DNA of 64,000 bases from Candidatus Anderseniibacteriota bacterium (GCA_046350855.1 JAXLZM010000002.1:78103-142102), one strand, 5' to 3'; shown: positions 1,549-5,019, counted from the first letter of the stretch. The notes: a model not told the origin generated them from the sequence alone. Numbers and translations: made by a program.

Positions 1549-3441
1549 ATGCCAGGAGAACGCCCCGGACCAGGCCCAGAATTTTTAGGAGAAAAATACC
1601 AAGACCTGCCTGGTTCTAAACCGGTAGAGCGTGCCGTACAAAAAGAGCTACGCTCCGGCAAGCCCGGACCGACCACTAAAGAGGGTCGCATCGAATCGTA
1701 CCTGGGACGTCTCGAGCGCATCACCGAGGATGAGCGCGGCTATGAGCTCCTCAAAAATAAGCTCCTCAACAAATTTACAATCAATCTCGACGACACCGAG
1801 CTCGTTGACCGTATCGCCCACGGCCTCTACGAATCCGAGAAAAAGCTCGCCATCGAGCAAGGCCGCGGCGCAGATATCCGTCGCTTTGAGTCCGAGCAAA
1901 ACGTGGTCGAGCACTACAAACCGCTCGTCAAAGAAAAAGCCGAGATCCAGCAACGCACGCTCTCCAATTGGCTCGATTATCTCCAGCGCAACGACGCCAA
2001 ACAGCCCATGAGTTTTAGGTACTTTGTCGTACGCAGCCTCGAAAAAATGGGTCAGTTCGACAAAGAGCGCGGCCAGTACAGCAAACGCACGATCACCACC
2101 GTCGCGCCTTTTCCGGAGCTCAACTCCGAGGCACTTGGTTGGGTCTATCAGCGGCTCACCAAAGGTCTTGATCCGGACGAACAATACGACCCAGCGCAAA
2201 AAGCTGAGCTACAAAAACTCATCAAATCAAAAGACTTTGCCAAATTGTACGCCCATGCCCAAATCGAGACCGCCGGCAAACTCAACCGCGAATCACTCGA
2301 TGGAACCTGGAAAAAATATGACAAGGGTAGCGACTGGCGCACACTTGAGCATGATCTCAAAAACAAAGGTACCGGTTGGTGCACGGCCGAGGGCAGCGCC
2401 AAACCGCACCTGGCCGGCGGTGACTTTTTTGTCTATTACACCAAGGGTAAGGAGGGCAAGTACACCGAGCCGCGCGTCGCTATCCGCATGGAGGGCGACC
2501 ACATCGGTGAGGTCAGAGGTGTAGGGGCCAGGCAGGAGGTAGAACCGGCTCTTGTCGACGCAGCGCAGGCTAAGTACCACAAACTCCCGGGTGGCGAATC
2601 CTACGATAAAAAAGCCCACGACATGAAATACATGACCGCCCTTACCAAAAAACAGGCCGAGGGCAAACCCCTTACGGGACCAGACCTCAGATTCTTGTAC
2701 GAGCTCGACGCTCCGATCGAGAGCTTTGGGTACGATAAAGATCCTCGTGTCGCTGAGACTCGTAAAGGACGCGACGTTGAACAAGATATGTTGGCGGTTT
2801 TTGATGCGACGCCAGAGCAAATTGCACACCAAACGAGCGAGGTGCGTTCTGATACCAAGGCCTATGTCGGAAAATTAGAGCCGGGTGTTTTTGAGCTGCT
2901 CAGTAAATATCCTACAATTGAGCATATCTACACGAGCTTTCCAGAAAAGCCCATCCGCATCGAGCGACTTGAGACTGGTGGCAAAACCGCTGACCAGTAC
3001 ATCAAACTGCTCGAGGCGCAGGGTCACAAGATTTACGACTACGCCCTGGATATGCTCAAGAGTAAGGACTTTAAACCAGCCACCCAGGCGCAAAATCTCG
3101 AACTCGTACGACTCTCGGTCGGTGATCTTATGTTGCCTGAGGACCGTCAAAGGGGGTACCTCACTACGGATGAACTCTATAAGCGTGCAGACAGCTTTGG
3201 GTTGGACCTTGCTCCCGCCGAAACGGGCCCCGAACTCCGTCTCAAACTCAAAAACCAGCCAGTCGGTGAATACGTCTATGTAGGCATGAAGCCTATAACC
3301 GTTCGCGACGGCAATCCGAGCGTCTTCTGCGTCGAGCGCGGTGAGGATGGGTCCTGGCTCCAGCGGCGACGATGCCGGGCCCGTCAACTCGTGGGGTCCC
3401 GACCATCAGATCGTGTTCCGTCTCCGCAAGTAGCTTTGTGA
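1549..3441 (+). CDS. DGR target protein (variable protein). Large N-terminal domain of unknown function, C-terminal C-type-lectin-fold variable region. Frame as assembled is disrupted near the 3' end.
   Basis: ATG at 1549 lies in the divergent promoter region shared with the desulfurase gene. The C-terminal ~42 codons match the TR at 4894–5019 (− strand), mismatching only at TR adenines. With the 1-nt VR insertion removed, the C-terminus reads 'GNPSVFCVERGEDGSWLSGDDAGPVNSWGPDHQIVFRLRK*' (stop TAG 3431–3433), which fits the CLec-fold DGR VR consensus (GSW…N…FRLR). No signal peptide was seen. Confidence 0.85.
   Translation: MPGERPGPGPEFLGEKYQDLPGSKPVERAVQKELRSGKPGPTTKEGRIESYLGRLERITEDERGYELLKNKLLNKFTINLDDTELVDRIAHGLYESEKKLAIEQGRGADIRRFESEQNVVEHYKPLVKEKAEIQQRTLSNWLDYLQRNDAKQPMSFRYFVVRSLEKMGQFDKERGQYSKRTITTVAPFPELNSEALGWVYQRLTKGLDPDEQYDPAQKAELQKLIKSKDFAKLYAHAQIETAGKLNRESLDGTWKKYDKGSDWRTLEHDLKNKGTGWCTAEGSAKPHLAGGDFFVYYTKGKEGKYTEPRVAIRMEGDHIGEVRGVGARQEVEPALVDAAQAKYHKLPGGESYDKKAHDMKYMTALTKKQAEGKPLTGPDLRFLYELDAPIESFGYDKDPRVAETRKGRDVEQDMLAVFDATPEQIAHQTSEVRSDTKAYVGKLEPGVFELLSKYPTIEHIYTSFPEKPIRIERLETGGKTADQYIKLLEAQGHKIYDYALDMLKSKDFKPATQAQNLELVRLSVGDLMLPEDRQRGYLTTDELYKRADSFGLDLAPAETGPELRLKLKNQPVGEYVYVGMKPITVRDGNPSVFCVERGEDGSWLQRRRCRARQLVGSRPSDRVPSPQVAL
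3304..3429 (+). repeat. DGR variable repeat (VR) at the 3' end of the target gene
   Basis: About 126–127 nt homologous to the reverse complement of 4894–5019. About 18 substitutions, all at positions that are A in the TR sense strand. One extra C after 'ggctc' (about 3361). Ends in the shared GC-rich 'gttccgtctccgcaa'. Confidence 0.85.
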
Positions 3442-3442
3442 T

Positions 3443-4282
3443 TTAGAAGTTTTTGACATTTGGACTCTTAGGCTCTTTGGTACTTTGTCGTCTCGCAATT
3501 TGCTGATCTAAGCGATGTGCCAGTTTATACGTATTACCGTGGCTCAATAATCCGCGGTAAGACGCGATGGTCCCGGTGGAGTAGTTTTCTTGCAGTCGCT
3601 TTACGATTCTACGTTTTGTCGACGTGCGTAATACGCGGTGGCCTGGAAAATGTACCCAACCTAAAAAATCAACACCCGAGGCCAGCGTGGTGATAGATAA
3701 TTTGCGCGGGTGCAGTGATAATTTGAGACGCGTAGTAAGAAATCTTGCGATTTTAGGTATGAGTTGCTGTAGATACTCATACTCGCTACTCAGTATCACA
3801 AAGTCATCTGCATAGCGTACGTAATGCCGTGCCCTCAGTGTTCTTTTGATGTACGCATCTAGTTCGTGCATGTATATATTGATGAGGAGTTGGCTCGTTA
3901 CGTTACCAAGCGGCAGCCCGATCCCGGGCCTGTCAGTAGTGTGGAAACTCGTAATGACTCGCTCAAAAAGCCAAAGGACATGTTCATCCATAATGGACTT
4001 GCGCAAGAGTGCCATGAGCGTAGCTTGATCGATCGAGGCAAAAAACTTTTGTATGTCACATTTGAGCACCCAACACGTACGCGTATTGTTGCGCGAGACT
4101 TTACGCGCGAATGCTCTAAATCGGTTGAGCGCGCGGTGGGTACCTTTATTACGCCGACAAGAAAAAGCATCAAATAAAAATATGTGATCAAAATATGGAT
4201 AGAGTTGACGATAAATCGCGTGATGCACGACTCGGTCGCGCACCGTTGCCTTGTGGATGTCGCGCGGTTTTGGATCACTCAC
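3443..4282 (-). CDS. DGR reverse transcriptase. The ORF as called starts at GTG 4282; the conserved N-terminal domain continues in frame upstream to ~4480 with no start codon.
   Basis: Motifs 'FRDRVVHHA'-like 'VRDRVVHHAIY', 'SCRRNKGTH', the DGR-specific motif-4 variant 'LPLGNVTSQ' ([IL]GxxxSQ), catalytic 'YVRYADDFVIL', and 'GVDFLGW'. The upstream in-frame translation 'SFDSIISLDNLLESWRAFARGKRHRQDVARFSLQLIDNLLALHGDLKTGSYQHGPYHHFKVSDPKPRD' matches the conserved DGR RT N-terminus. Confidence 0.9.
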   Translation of the reverse strand: MSDPKPRDIHKATVRDRVVHHAIYRQLYPYFDHIFLFDAFSCRRNKGTHRALNRFRAFARKVSRNNTRTCWVLKCDIQKFFASIDQATLMALLRKSIMDEHVLWLFERVITSFHTTDRPGIGLPLGNVTSQLLINIYMHELDAYIKRTLRARHYVRYADDFVILSSEYEYLQQLIPKIARFLTTRLKLSLHPRKLSITTLASGVDFLGWVHFPGHRVLRTSTKRRIVKRLQENYSTGTIASYRGLLSHGNTYKLAHRLDQQIARRQSTKEPKSPNVKNF

Positions 4283-4478
4283 TTTAAAATGATGGTACGG
4301 ACCATGCTGGTACGAGCCAGTCTTTAGATCACCGTGGAGCGCTAGTAGATTGTCAATTAACTGCAGCGAAAAGCGTGCAACGTCTTGTCGATGTCGCTTA
4401 CCTCGTGCGAATGCCCTCCAAGATTCCAGGAGATTGTCTAAAGAGATGATAGAATCAAAACTTACATGAGTAAAAGTA

Positions 4479-4512
4479 CTCTCTCTCTCTCTCTCTCTCT
4501 CTCTCTCTCTCT
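4479..4512. repeat. (CT)17 / (GA)17 perfect dinucleotide microsatellite
   Basis: Read directly: 'act' followed by ctctct…ctc from 4479 to 4512. It lies between the Avd start (TTG 4528, + strand) and the conserved RT N-terminus (− strand). It encodes (ER)n in the RT frame. Confidence 0.95.
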
Positions 4513-4527
4513 CGAAACGCGACCATT

Positions 4528-4875
4528 TTGCATCGGCTGCGAGAGGCGTACCTGGCCTGGTCCGCGGTTCTGCCGCACATAGCTAAGTCTGCTCGGTACG
4601 GGATCGGTGCCCGCATCGATAATCGTTTTTTGAGTCTGTTGGAGCGTACGCATGTGACGTATTTTAGCGCACGTGCACTGCGCGGCGAAAAAATTGCAAA
4701 CTGCATTGTTGAACTCGATACGCTCAAGTTTTTACTAGCAACGGCCTGGGAGGCTAAGCATATTTCTAATCACCAGTACGAGTTAGTGGCACTAAAACTA
4801 GAAGAAGTAGGTAAGATGTTTGGCGGTTGGAAAAAATCGCTCGCCACTAGTAATAAAAACCGCACGCTTTGGTAG
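4528..4875 (+). CDS. avd: Avd-like accessory variability determinant (four-helix-bundle / 23S rRNA IVS-protein family)
   Basis: 115 aa, basic. C-terminal 'LDTLKFLLATAWEAKHISNHQYELVALKLEEVGKMFGGWKKSL' follows the Avd/IVS four-helix-bundle pattern (compare Avd '…HQVETAQVLIAEVGRILGSWI…'). TTG start. Encoded divergently from RT, between RT and TR. Confidence 0.75.
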   Translation: MHRLREAYLAWSAVLPHIAKSARYGIGARIDNRFLSLLERTHVTYFSARALRGEKIANCIVELDTLKFLLATAWEAKHISNHQYELVALKLEEVGKMFGGWKKSLATSNKNRTLW

Positions 4876-4893
4876 GTGCGGAAAAGAGCCAGT

Positions 4894-5019
4894 TGCGGAG
4901 ACGGAACACGATCTGATTGTCGGGATTCCACTTGTTGTCGGGCTTGGCATTGTTGCTGTTGAGCCAGGACCCATCCTCATTGCGCTTGACGTTGAAGACG
5001 CTCGGATTGCCGTCTCGAT
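4894..5019 (-). repeat. DGR template repeat (TR), sense on the minus strand
   Basis: The reverse complement aligns with VR 3304–3429. It is adenine-rich in AAC/AAT codon positions ('aacagcaacaatgccaagcccgacaacaagtggaatcccgacaat'). Translated in the VR frame it gives 'GNPSVFNVKRNEDGSWLNSNNAKPDNKWNPDNQIVFRLRN'. A 6-bp-stem hairpin (4861–4882) lies immediately 3' of it on the minus strand. Confidence 0.85.

What the first reader, a model, noticed from the sequence alone, without database searches (positions are those of the whole stretch)
1549..5019. Complete DGR cassette: CLec-fold target, DGR-type RT, Avd and an adenine-rich TR
All four hallmark parts are present within 3.5 kb.
- A reverse transcriptase carries the DGR-specific motif-4 substitution 'LPLGNVTSQ', the catalytic 'YADDFVIL' and the conserved DGR N-terminal domain.
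- An Avd-like four-helix-bundle ORF lies between RT and TR.
- A 126-nt TR (4894–5019, − strand) has a reverse complement matching the last ~126 nt of the upstream target gene (3304–3429).
- Every one of the ~18 TR/VR mismatches falls on a TR adenine, none on C, G or T. That is the signature of DGR mutagenic retrohoming.
- TR is loaded with AAC/AAT codons, and the VR protein follows the C-type-lectin-fold consensus (…GSW…N…FRLR).
- Target and TR/RT sit on opposite strands, and Avd is divergent from RT. This layout is less common than target-avd-TR-RT.
Basis: partly seen in the sequence, partly recalled or inferred. Interest (0 to 1): 0.9.

Follow-up and report, generated by a model that had tools for sequence, protein, structure and literature searches.

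The report
Diversity-generating retroelement in a CPR bacterium
This is a genuine diversity-generating retroelement of the type common in ultra-small CPR bacteria, assembled with both its target gene and its reverse-transcriptase gene out of frame; it also carries a slippery (CT)17 repeat that sits at the same spot in almost all related elements and that I could not find described.

Summary
The finding is real. TR (4893-5024, minus strand) and VR (3297-3429, plus strand) differ by 19 substitutions. All 19 fall on TR adenines (19 of 39 A; p about 2e-12).

The supporting parts hold up:
- The RT is closest to Bordetella bRT among solved structures.
- The small ORF is a Pfam bAvd.
- The target's C-terminal domain models as a C-type-lectin/FGE fold, matching TvpA and Mtd.

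The layout TR-(avd)-RT is the known "B3" architecture, the norm in CPR bacteria. This is therefore a new member of a known kind.

1. The VR has a +1 insertion at a TR AAC codon. The assembled target therefore loses its conserved ...FVFRLRK end.
2. The RT frame has no ATG, GTG or TTG before its conserved N-terminus. A (CT)17.5 repeat at 4479-4513 sets the phase, and 17 units is the one phase of three with no in-frame start.
3. A G-containing simple repeat (G8-13 or (GA)n, and (TG)n in one further element) sits at this position in 67 of 72 related elements, against 0.024 expected. Its length differs between assemblies with identical RT in 3 of 6 unbiased sets.

A terminator-like hairpin follows the TR in 51 of 61 related loci. 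Whether the repeat is an expression switch is untested.

The parts
1549..3441 (+). Target gene, 630 aa as assembled (NCBI hypothetical protein U0517_01960). It belongs to a CPR-wide family of about 610-640 aa with no Pfam domain. The last ~27 codons are out of frame. In the TR frame the stop would be TAG 3430-3432 and the protein would end ...HQIVFRLRK (627 aa).
   Evidence: ORF list. Translation as assembled and with the extra base removed. 1751 homologues, whose C-termini end ...FVFRLRK. No Pfam or NCBIfam hit. AF2 model pLDDT 89.8.
3297..3429 (+). Variable repeat (VR), 133 nt, encoding the C-terminal part of a C-type-lectin/FGE-fold domain.
3359..3360 (+). +1 insertion (one extra C) in the VR relative to the TR, opposite the TR codon AAC. 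It frameshifts the target's C-terminus.
   Evidence: Gapped alignment and repaired translation. Sister elements L065, L071 and L028 also have indels at TR-adenine positions. Wu et al. report VR indels opposite AAC and VR frameshifts (PMC5758913).
3443..4478 (-). DGR reverse transcriptase, open frame from the repeat tract to TAA 3443-3445. The conserved N-terminus SIISLDNLL lies at 4427-4453, motif 4 LPLGNVTSQ at 3890-3916 and YADDFV at 3797-3814. There is no in-frame ATG, GTG or TTG upstream of GTG 4282.
   Evidence: Pfam RVT_1 81.5 bits. Best PDB sequence match is bRT 8ub7_A, E 1.5e-48. The nearest homologues are 58-65% identical, 325-360 aa, all from CPR.
4479..4513 (.). (CT)17.5 on the + strand, which is (GA)17.5 on the RT-sense strand. 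It is the only long simple repeat in the 64-kb window and lies between the divergent avd and RT starts.
   Evidence: TRF, 100% matches, score 70. Only dinucleotide tract longer than 10 nt in the window. An SSR occupies the same position in 67 of 72 related loci. Phase simulation. Natural length polymorphism in sister elements.
4528..4875 (+). avd accessory gene (115 aa, TTG start), divergent from the RT. Its stop codon TAG 4873-4875 lies in the loop of the hairpin that follows the TR.
   Evidence: Pfam bAvd PF22296, 51.6 bits against a cut-off of 40. NCBIfam DivGenRetAVD 51.2 bits, below its cut-off of 80.
4855..4881 (-). Terminator-like element 11 nt after the TR on the TR/RT strand: hairpin CCGCAC-N10-GTGCGG (4860-4881) followed by T5 (4855-4859).
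   Evidence: Sequence and fold. The same kind of hairpin plus T-run lies 2-19 nt after the TR in 51 of 61 related loci, against 24 of 1181 background windows, with differing stem sequences.
4893..5024 (-). Template repeat (TR), 132 nt, 39 adenines. Its last 25 nt are identical to the VR (an IMH-like block), after which the two sequences diverge.
   Evidence: The TR lies about 600 nt upstream of the RT DPKPR motif, as in about 60 related loci.

Best explanation
This is a chromosomal diversity-generating retroelement of the CPR 'B3' type, with order TR-(avd)-RT and a convergent target, in a Candidatus Andersenbacteria genome.

Inferred mechanism, by analogy with the Bordetella phage DGR:
1. The 132-nt TR is transcribed from the minus strand. 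It is probably a discrete short RNA ending at the hairpin and U-run 11 nt downstream.
2. The RT, together with Avd, copies this RNA into cDNA and misincorporates opposite template adenines.
3. The cDNA replaces the VR at the 3' end of the target gene.
4. This rewrites up to 23 codons of a C-type-lectin-fold binding surface on a 627-aa protein of unknown function that is conserved across CPR bacteria.

State of the assembled sequence: it is non-productive at two points, and both are hypermutable sites.
- The VR carries a +1 insertion opposite a TR AAC codon, which scrambles the last ~27 residues of the target.
- The (GA)17 tract just upstream of the RT's conserved N-terminus is in the one phase of three that leaves the RT without an in-frame canonical start codon.

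The TR, the RT catalytic motifs and avd are intact. Either defect would therefore be reversible, one by repeat slippage and the other by a new round of homing. Whether they are real alleles, population-consensus artefacts or the start of decay cannot be decided from the sequence.
For: Shown here:
- The 19 TR/VR substitutions are all at TR adenines, p 1.7e-12. These adenines sit at codon positions 1-2, and the TR is rich in AAC/AAT codons.
- The RT carries the DGR motif-4 variant and YADD. Its best solved relative is bRT, E 1.5e-48, 27 orders of magnitude better than group II or retron RTs.
- Pfam bAvd scores above its cut-off.
- About 60 related loci have the same TR-(avd)-RT module at the same spacing, with adenine-only TR/VR differences.
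- In sister elements with identical RT and TR sampled from different metagenomes, the VRs differ only at TR-adenine positions, so this clade is active in nature.
- The hairpin plus T-run after the TR is conserved, 51 of 61 loci against 2% background.
- Frameshift: homologue C-termini match the repaired frame, not the assembled one.
- Phase: simulation of tract length.

Inferred only: every mechanistic step (priming, homing, the role of Avd) is taken from established knowledge of the BPP-1 DGR.
Against: - There is no read-level or population data for this element. Its RT and target are singletons in the 5.8-billion-protein collection, with the nearest relatives at 65% and 62% identity. Activity of this particular copy is therefore not shown.
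- As assembled, neither the RT nor the target would give a normal product.
- No GC-rich hairpin of the Bordetella type lies within 100 nt 3' of the VR.
- NCBIfam's Avd model scores below its cut-off, and Avd has no sequence hit in PDB.
- 9 of 67 related loci also lack a canonical in-frame RT start. This family may use an initiation mode I cannot see, in which case the RT here is not 'off'.
Confidence: 0.9

Rival explanations
1. The two defects are assembly or consensus artefacts, and the element is fully functional in the cells. A hypervariable VR and a 35-nt dinucleotide repeat are exactly where short-read metagenome assemblers and library PCR miscall length.
For: - The source is a MAG.
- Related assemblies break or carry N-runs at this spot: L057, L123 and the contig end of L010.
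- L101 appears to have a chimeric VR/TR join.
- Both defects are single length changes, +1 nt in the VR and 2 nt of phase in the tract.
Against: - Indels at TR-adenine positions recur in independent sister elements L028, L065 and L071 and are documented for DGRs (PMC5758913).
- Tract-length differences between samples come as whole repeat units in otherwise identical loci.
- Nothing in the sequence itself marks an error.
Confidence: 0.3
2. The element is a decaying, no longer functional DGR. The frameshift and the missing start are permanent lesions on the way to pseudogenisation.
For: - Two independent loss-of-function features occur in one cassette.
- No canonical start exists even where close relatives have ATG. 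The codon four positions before the conserved His is AGT here, and ATG or CTG in L014, L022, L032 and L033.
Against: - Downstream of the tract the RT frame is open for 345 codons, with all conserved motifs and no internal stop.
- The TR keeps 39 adenines at codon positions 1-2.
- Every VR substitution is at an adenine, with no background drift: 0 non-A substitutions in 132 nt.
- avd is intact.
- Both lesions sit at the two hypermutable sites rather than at random.
Confidence: 0.15
3. The conserved repeat between avd and RT is not a mutational switch. It is instead a strand-specific nucleic-acid element, for example a G-rich leader of the RT mRNA and C-rich leader of the avd mRNA, an R-loop or triplex-prone polypurine tract, or a binding site. 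On this view its length variation is tolerated noise.
For: - The tract is always G-containing on the RT-sense strand (G8-13, (GA)n, (TG)n) and never A/T-only, although A/T runs are 96 of 108 background SSRs.
- In several loci its 3' end doubles as a Shine-Dalgarno-like GAGAGGAAA-ATG.
- In most poly-G loci the RT ATG lies downstream, so the tract is not in the coding frame.
- G10 tracts were invariant in 9 assemblies.
Against: - Three different repeat motifs occupy the same position. What is conserved is repetitiveness, not sequence.
- Lengths range from 10 to 43 nt between species.
- All three sampled long dinucleotide tracts are length-polymorphic among assemblies with identical RT.
- G/C homopolymers and GA/CT or GT/CA repeats are the motifs typical of bacterial contingency loci (established knowledge).
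Confidence: 0.35
4. This is not a DGR at all, only a chance or duplication-derived inverted repeat next to a group II intron or retron-type RT.
For: NCBIfam's best-scoring RT model is group_II_RT_mat, at 149 bits. NCBI names the protein 'reverse transcriptase/maturase family'.
Against: - That score is far below the model's cut-off of 300.
- bRT is the best structural relative by 27 orders of magnitude.
- The adenine-only mismatch pattern has p about 2e-12.
- Avd is adjacent.
- The module recurs with its TR/VR pair in about 60 loci.
- No intron RNA family is found by Rfam.
Confidence: 0.01

Closest known systems
CPR-type DGRs of architecture B3, TR-(avd)-RT (Wu et al. 2018, PMC5758913; Paul et al. 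2017, Nat Microbiol, not readable here)
   Same: - Same gene order and orientation, with avd divergent from the RT and the TR about 600 nt upstream of the RT DPKPR motif on the RT strand.
- The RT is 58-65% identical to hundreds of CPR RTs.
- The target family is widespread in CPR and has no Pfam domain.
- The diversified domain has a CLec fold.
   Different: - The target is convergent downstream of the RT rather than upstream of the TR, as in 6 of about 60 related loci.
- The assembled VR is frameshifted.
- The RT lacks an in-frame canonical start.
- The (GA)17.5 tract is among the longest seen at this position (range 10-43 nt).
Bordetella phage BPP-1 DGR (mtd-avd-TR-brt)
   Same: - Adenine-specific TR-to-VR information transfer.
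- The RT has the [LIV]GxxxSQ motif-4 variant, YxDD and the same N-terminal ...ENLL... segment (alignment).
- An Avd accessory protein is present.
   Different: - The element is chromosomal, not phage-borne. Its neighbours are a cysteine-desulfurase-like gene and a suf operon.
- avd is on the opposite strand, between the TR and the RT. There is therefore no contiguous TR-spacer-RT RNA, and the TR is followed by its own terminator-like hairpin.
- No hairpin lies 3' of the VR.
- A simple repeat sits in the avd/RT control region.
Treponema denticola TvpA and FGE-type CLec variable proteins
   Different: - Sequence identity is only 8-11%.
- There is no Pfam FGE-sulfatase hit.
Simple-sequence-repeat contingency loci (phase variation): Helicobacter pylori oipA (CT)n in the 5' coding region (PMC10564699), Mycoplasma mycoides MmyCI methyltransferase (AG)12 (PMC3498834), poly-G/C tracts of Campylobacter and Neisseria (PMC8355987, PMC5320596)
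   Same: - A mono- or dinucleotide tract above slippage length sits at the 5' end or control region of a gene.
- It is strongly over-represented at that site.
- Its length differs between otherwise identical loci by whole repeat units.
- In the window the unit number decides whether an ATG is in frame with the RT.
   Different: - No expression data exist.
- In most related loci the RT start codon lies downstream of the tract, so any switch there would act on transcription or the 5'UTR, not on the reading frame.
- The tract lies between two divergent genes whose products act together.
- The hosts are CPR bacteria, for which I found no report of phase variation.

Membership tests
Diversity-generating retroelement (DGR) | TR/VR repeat pair whose differences are restricted to adenines of the TR | tested here: met
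   19 of 19 substitutions fall on TR adenines, p 1.7e-12. There is also one 1-nt indel next to a TR AAC.
Diversity-generating retroelement (DGR) | RT of the DGR clade (motif 4 [LIV]GxxxSQ, YxDD, DGR-type N-terminal segment) | tested here: met
   LPLGNVTSQ, YADDFV and SIISLDNLL are present. The best PDB relative is bRT 8ub7_A, E 1.5e-48, against 1e-21 for the next RT class. About 60 of its closest relatives have their own TR/VR pairs. No formal tree was built.
Diversity-generating retroelement (DGR) | Accessory protein (Avd) adjacent to the RT and TR | tested here: met
   Pfam bAvd 51.6 bits, cut-off 40. NCBIfam DivGenRetAVD 51.2 bits is below its cut-off of 80.
Diversity-generating retroelement (DGR) | VR lies at the 3' end of a protein-coding target and encodes the variable face of a CLec (or Ig) fold | tested here: met
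   [not shown]
Diversity-generating retroelement (DGR) | IMH/IMH* at the 3' end of VR/TR and a GC-rich hairpin just 3' of the VR (defined in the Bordetella phage; not universal) | tested here: not met
   A 25-nt invariant GC-rich block ends both repeats and is followed by divergence, which is compatible with IMH/IMH*. No inverted repeat lies within 100 nt 3' of the VR, and the folding energy there is weaker than in shuffles.
Diversity-generating retroelement (DGR) | Ongoing mutagenic homing, seen as VR heterogeneity at TR-adenine sites in a population | not testable with these tools
   No reads and no second copy of this element are available. In sister elements with identical RT and TR, the VRs from different samples differ only at TR-adenine positions.
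Diversity-generating retroelement (DGR) | Translatable full-length RT gene | tested here: not met
   As assembled there is no in-frame ATG, GTG or TTG between the tract and GTG 4282, which lies 68 codons into the conserved protein. 9 of 67 relatives share this, so an unrecognised initiation mode is possible.
CPR DGR architecture B3 (TR-(avd)-RT) | TR upstream of the RT on the same strand, with avd between them on the opposite strand | tested here: met
   Window coordinates are TR 5024-4893 (-), avd 4528-4875 (+) and RT 4478-3443 (-). The definition is in PMC5758913. The spacing is the same in about 60 loci.
SSR contingency locus (phase-variable gene) | Mono- or dinucleotide tract above slippage length in the 5' coding or control region | tested here: met
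   (CT)17.5 at 4479-4513 lies 15 nt from the avd start and 25 nt from the RT's conserved N-terminus.
SSR contingency locus (phase-variable gene) | Tract over-represented at that site relative to genomic background | tested here: met
   67 of 72 related loci have an SSR in the 160-nt avd-RT window, against 0.024 expected per 160 bp. It is the only long SSR in this 64-kb window.
SSR contingency locus (phase-variable gene) | Tract length varies among closely related strains | tested here: inconclusive
   This cannot be tested for the window's element. In sister elements with identical RT protein the lengths were (TG) 19 vs 21 nt (4:3), (GA) 25 vs 31 nt (5:1) and (AG) 31 vs 25 nt (3:1). One (GA) 9-nt set and two G10 sets were invariant. 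These are assemblies, not reads.
SSR contingency locus (phase-variable gene) | Tract length switches expression on and off | not testable with these tools
   Only the reading-frame consequence could be computed. 14, 17 or 20 units give no in-frame start, and all other unit numbers put an upstream ATG in frame.

The most novel reading that the evidence does not exclude
CPR-type DGRs carry a built-in contingency locus. A hypermutable simple repeat (poly-G, (GA)n or (TG)n) in the roughly 70-nt head-to-head region between avd and RT would switch or tune expression of the mutagenic machinery by slippage. A targeted hypermutator would then itself be under stochastic on/off control.

On this reading the window shows the 'off' phase, (GA)17 with no in-frame start, together with a frameshifted VR that cannot be rewritten until the RT switches back on.
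Probability: 0.35. Interest if true: 0.75.

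Novelty: new member of a known kind. Interest (0 to 1): 0.5.

Why it matters
As a DGR this adds one more member to a class already known to be very common in CPR bacteria. By itself it changes little.

Two by-products may matter more.

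**The conserved repeat.** Almost every related element has a slippage-prone repeat at the same place between avd and RT. It comes in three different motifs, and its length is polymorphic in nature. How DGR activity is regulated is poorly understood, and I found no paper in the held library linking DGRs to simple repeats. If the tract gates RT/Avd expression, it would be a simple, testable regulatory principle. It would also be an example of one hypermutation device controlling another.

**The TR terminator.** The conserved terminator-like hairpin right after the TR suggests that in this architecture the template RNA is a discrete short transcript acting in trans. That bears on attempts to reconstitute these compact DGRs.

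Tried and rejected
1. **Conserved N-terminal extension of the RT.** Gene callers give many homologues extensions such as 'MRNNIHPNQISLFD...' or '...KYPSLILLRIEALSRERERE'. Rejected as coding. The two 'peptides' are the same DNA, the antisense of the avd N-terminus (...IKEGYLIW...), read in two frames. (GA)n reads RERE in all three frames.
2. **avd starting upstream of the tract**, which would place the tract inside its coding region. Rejected. An in-frame upstream ATG exists in 22 of 68 loci, which is the chance expectation of one third.
3. **The tract as a strictly polypurine RNA element.** Weakened by the (TG)n variant in the Sungbacteria set.
4. **The tract as a -35/-10 promoter spacer.** Unlikely, because lengths range from 10 to 43 nt between species. 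The consensus promoter scan gave nothing above shuffles.
I replaced it with a per-sequence hairpin search against background windows.
6. **Global fold of the TR region** is no more stable than shuffles, z = -0.04.
7. **Rfam** finds only a tRNA in the window.
8. **Pfam and NCBIfam** give nothing for the target. **Avd** has no sequence hit in PDB.
9. **Paul et al. 2017** (Nat Microbiol), the main CPR-DGR paper, is not held. I cannot exclude that it mentions the repeat.
10. **Look-ups by exact RT protein** are biased against tract variation when the called ORF includes the tract (the P0059 and P0118 sets). Those sets were excluded from the polymorphism count.

Full report
**Source and context**

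The window comes from a Candidatus Andersenbacteria (CPR/Patescibacteria) MAG contig of 229 kb. The RT and target proteins occur once each in the 5.8-billion-protein collection, under NCBI names 'reverse transcriptase/maturase family protein' (279 aa) and 'hypothetical protein U0517_01960' (630 aa).

The cassette lies between a class-V aminotransferase gene (255-1466, minus strand) and an Rrf2-regulated suf operon whose SufB carries a LAGLIDADG intein. It is chromosomal, with no phage genes nearby.

**Checking the observation**

The repeat finder reports one inverted repeat in the 64-kb window that joins 3297-3435 to 4887-5024. It is split in two by a 1-nt offset. The gapped alignment gives TR 4893-5024 (minus strand) against VR 3297-3429 (plus strand).
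- There are 19 substitutions, all at TR adenines (12 A>G, 4 A>T, 3 A>C).
- They use 19 of the 39 adenines in 132 nt, hypergeometric p = 1.7e-12.
- 35 of 36 in-frame TR adenines are at codon positions 1 or 2.
- There are nine AAC/AAT codons and about 10^20.5 possible peptides.

**The missed frameshift in the VR**

The VR has one extra C at about 3360, opposite the TR codon AAC. The assembled target therefore ends ...GSWLQRRRCRARQLVGSRPSDRVPSPQVAL. Deleting the base gives ...GSWLSGDDAGPVNSWGPDHQIVFRLRK followed by a stop.

More than fifty homologue C-termini end ...GLWL....A.P...W.P...FVFRLRK. The repaired frame is therefore the family frame.

Single-base deletions of TR adenines occur in sister elements L065 and L071, and a 3-nt insertion next to ACAA occurs in L028. 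Wu et al. document VR indels opposite AAC and VR frameshifts (PMC5758913). The insertion looks like a by-product of adenine mutagenesis. A consensus artefact at a heterogeneous VR cannot be excluded.

**The RT**

In the minus-strand frame the conserved protein runs from ...SFDSIISLDNLLESWRAFARGKR (4427-4453) through LPLGNVTSQ (3890-3916) and YADDFV (3797-3814) to TAA 3443-3445.
- It hits Pfam RVT_1.
- NCBIfam's group II intron RT model scores 149 bits, far below its cut-off of 300.
- Among solved structures the best match is the Bordetella bRT (8ub7_A, E 1.5e-48, aligned from residue 8). The next RT classes are at about 1e-21.
- The 120 best database homologues are 58-65% identical, 325-360 aa long, and all from CPR-type organisms.

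**Avd and the target**

The 115-aa ORF at 4528-4875 hits Pfam bAvd at 51.6 bits, against a cut-off of 40. It hits NCBIfam's Avd model below cut-off.

The target has 1751 homologues of about 610-640 aa with no Pfam domain.
- An AlphaFold model of the repaired protein has pLDDT 89.8.
- Foldseek's top hits are C-type lectin CRDs at weak E-values.

**Comparison with related loci**

A scan of one genome per species returned 80 loci with related RTs. In about 60 of them a TR with adenine-restricted mismatches lies about 600 nt upstream of the RT DPKPR motif on the RT strand, with avd between them on the opposite strand. This is architecture B3, TR-(avd)-RT, which Wu et al. found in 90% of CPR DGRs.

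The VR is usually about 450 nt upstream of the TR. In L007, L014, L015, L023, L033 and L034 it is downstream of the RT on the opposite strand, as here. The layout is therefore the norm for the lineage.

The clade is active in nature. In sets of assemblies from different samples that encode the identical RT and TR, the VRs differ at about 20 (P0070 set) or 3 (P0118 set) positions. All of these are TR-adenine sites, and nothing else differs in 1.5 kb.

**The repeat tract**

TRF finds (CT)17.5 at 4479-4513, the only long simple repeat in the window. It lies 15 nt from the avd TTG start and 25 nt from the RT's conserved N-terminus.

The RT frame has no ATG, GTG or TTG between the tract and GTG 4282, 68 codons into the conserved protein. 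This is why NCBI annotates a truncated 279-aa product. Two ATGs upstream of the tract are each out of frame. Simulating tract lengths shows that 14, 17 and 20 units give no in-frame start, while every other number puts an ATG in frame with the full-length RT.

At the same position, 67 of 72 related loci have a simple repeat on the RT-sense strand. There are 44 poly-G tracts of 8-13 nt and 23 (GA)n tracts of 10-42 nt. Two of the five exceptions have G6-G7, and one has an N-run exactly there. Elsewhere in these loci such repeats occur 0.024 times per 160 bp and are nearly all poly-A/T. A Sungbacteria element has (TG)n instead.

Among assemblies that encode an identical RT whose called ORF excludes the tract:
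- All three long dinucleotide tracts are length-polymorphic: (TG) 19 vs 21 nt, (GA) 25 vs 31 nt, and (AG) 31 vs 25 nt.
- One 9-nt (GA) tract and two G10 tracts are not polymorphic.

**What the tract is not**
- The apparent conserved N-terminal RT extensions are the antisense of avd read in two frames.
- The tract is not inside avd's coding region, since in-frame upstream ATGs occur in 22 of 68 loci, the chance rate.
- In most poly-G loci the RT ATG lies downstream of the tract (28 of 43). In the (GA)n class this is less often so (5 of 24). 9 of 67 loci, including the window, have no canonical in-frame start.

Start codons lie 2-30 nt from one side of the tract, and avd's conserved N-terminus lies within 30 nt of the other side. 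There is no room for promoters between the tract and either gene. If each gene has its own promoter, the tract is transcribed in both directions. This is an inference.

Conservation of place but not of motif or length, G/C-containing motifs, and natural unit-wise polymorphism are what contingency loci look like. The strict G-richness on the RT strand also allows a strand-specific RNA or DNA role. I found no paper in the held library that links DGRs to simple repeats, homopolymers or polypurine tracts. The main CPR-DGR paper could not be read.

**The TR RNA**

Eleven nucleotides after the TR, on the TR/RT strand, lies the hairpin CCGCAC-N10-GTGCGG (4860-4881), followed by T5 (4855-4859). The avd stop codon sits in its loop. 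A perfect GC-rich hairpin followed by a T-run lies 2-19 nt after the TR in 51 of 61 related loci, against 24 of 1181 background windows. The stem sequences differ between loci, and most of the remaining ten have bulged versions.

This suggests that in B3 elements the template is a discrete terminated RNA acting in trans, not a leader of the RT mRNA. No hairpin lies within 100 nt 3' of the VR.

**Verdict**

The finding is a genuine DGR and a new member of a known, abundant kind. My confidence that it is a DGR is about 0.97, and 0.9 for the explanation as a whole.

As assembled it is non-productive at the two hypermutable sites. I cannot tell whether that reflects real reversible alleles, assembly artefacts or decay.

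The most interesting result concerns the whole clade rather than this window: a conserved, polymorphic simple repeat in the avd/RT control region. Its role is untested. I give the switch reading about 0.35.

Noticed in passing
window 5765-8272 (+): SufB is interrupted by an intein with a LAGLIDADG homing-endonuclease domain. Pfam hits are SUFBD_core, LAGLIDADG_3 and Intein_splicing, and the sequence shows ...EGC|LPGDEE... to ...VHN|C junctions. The rest of the suf operon follows: SufC, SufD, SufS and an FeS-assembly protein.
   Followed up: partly
L101 (MHQS01000006.1, Ca. Sungbacteria) 81-381 vs 668-968: In this MAG the VR-TR identity runs for 301 nt, through the TR hairpin and into the 3' end of avd. 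Other assemblies with the same RT (for example L099) have a normal 125-nt VR. This is either an assembly chimera between VR and TR, or homing of a read-through cDNA.
   Followed up: no
L057 (another Ca. Andersenbacteria MAG) about 4100; L123 about 400-490; L010 1-48: Assemblies break at or near this intergenic region. L057 has an N-run where the repeat should be, and L010 starts with a 48-nt C-run at that point. L123 has an N-run within the adjacent avd. This is consistent with the region being hard to assemble.
   Followed up: no
L019 about 5960-6000: One related element has both repeat types side by side, (GA)11 immediately followed by G9 and then ATG. It looks like an intermediate between the two classes.
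   Followed up: no
[not shown]
   Followed up: partly
window 3443-4875 vs the whole window: The RT (46.5% GC) and avd (49.4%) are less GC-rich than the window (54.5%), the target (54.3%) and the TR (54.5%). The RT-avd module may have a different history from its target.
   Followed up: no
window 3439-3445: The target stop as assembled (TGA 3439-3441) and the RT stop (TAA 3443-3445, minus strand) are 1 nt apart. The two convergent genes abut with no terminator between them.
   Followed up: no
related loci L001-L080, antisense of the avd 5' end: In the (GA)n class the first ~45 nt of avd (...ATCAAAGAGGGATATTTGAT...) are nearly invariant at the nucleotide level, including synonymous sites, among elements whose RTs are only about 60% identical. 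This hints at a second constraint (RNA or promoter) on that stretch.
   Followed up: no
window 15859-15933 (-): A single tRNA gene is the only Rfam family hit in the window.
   Followed up: no
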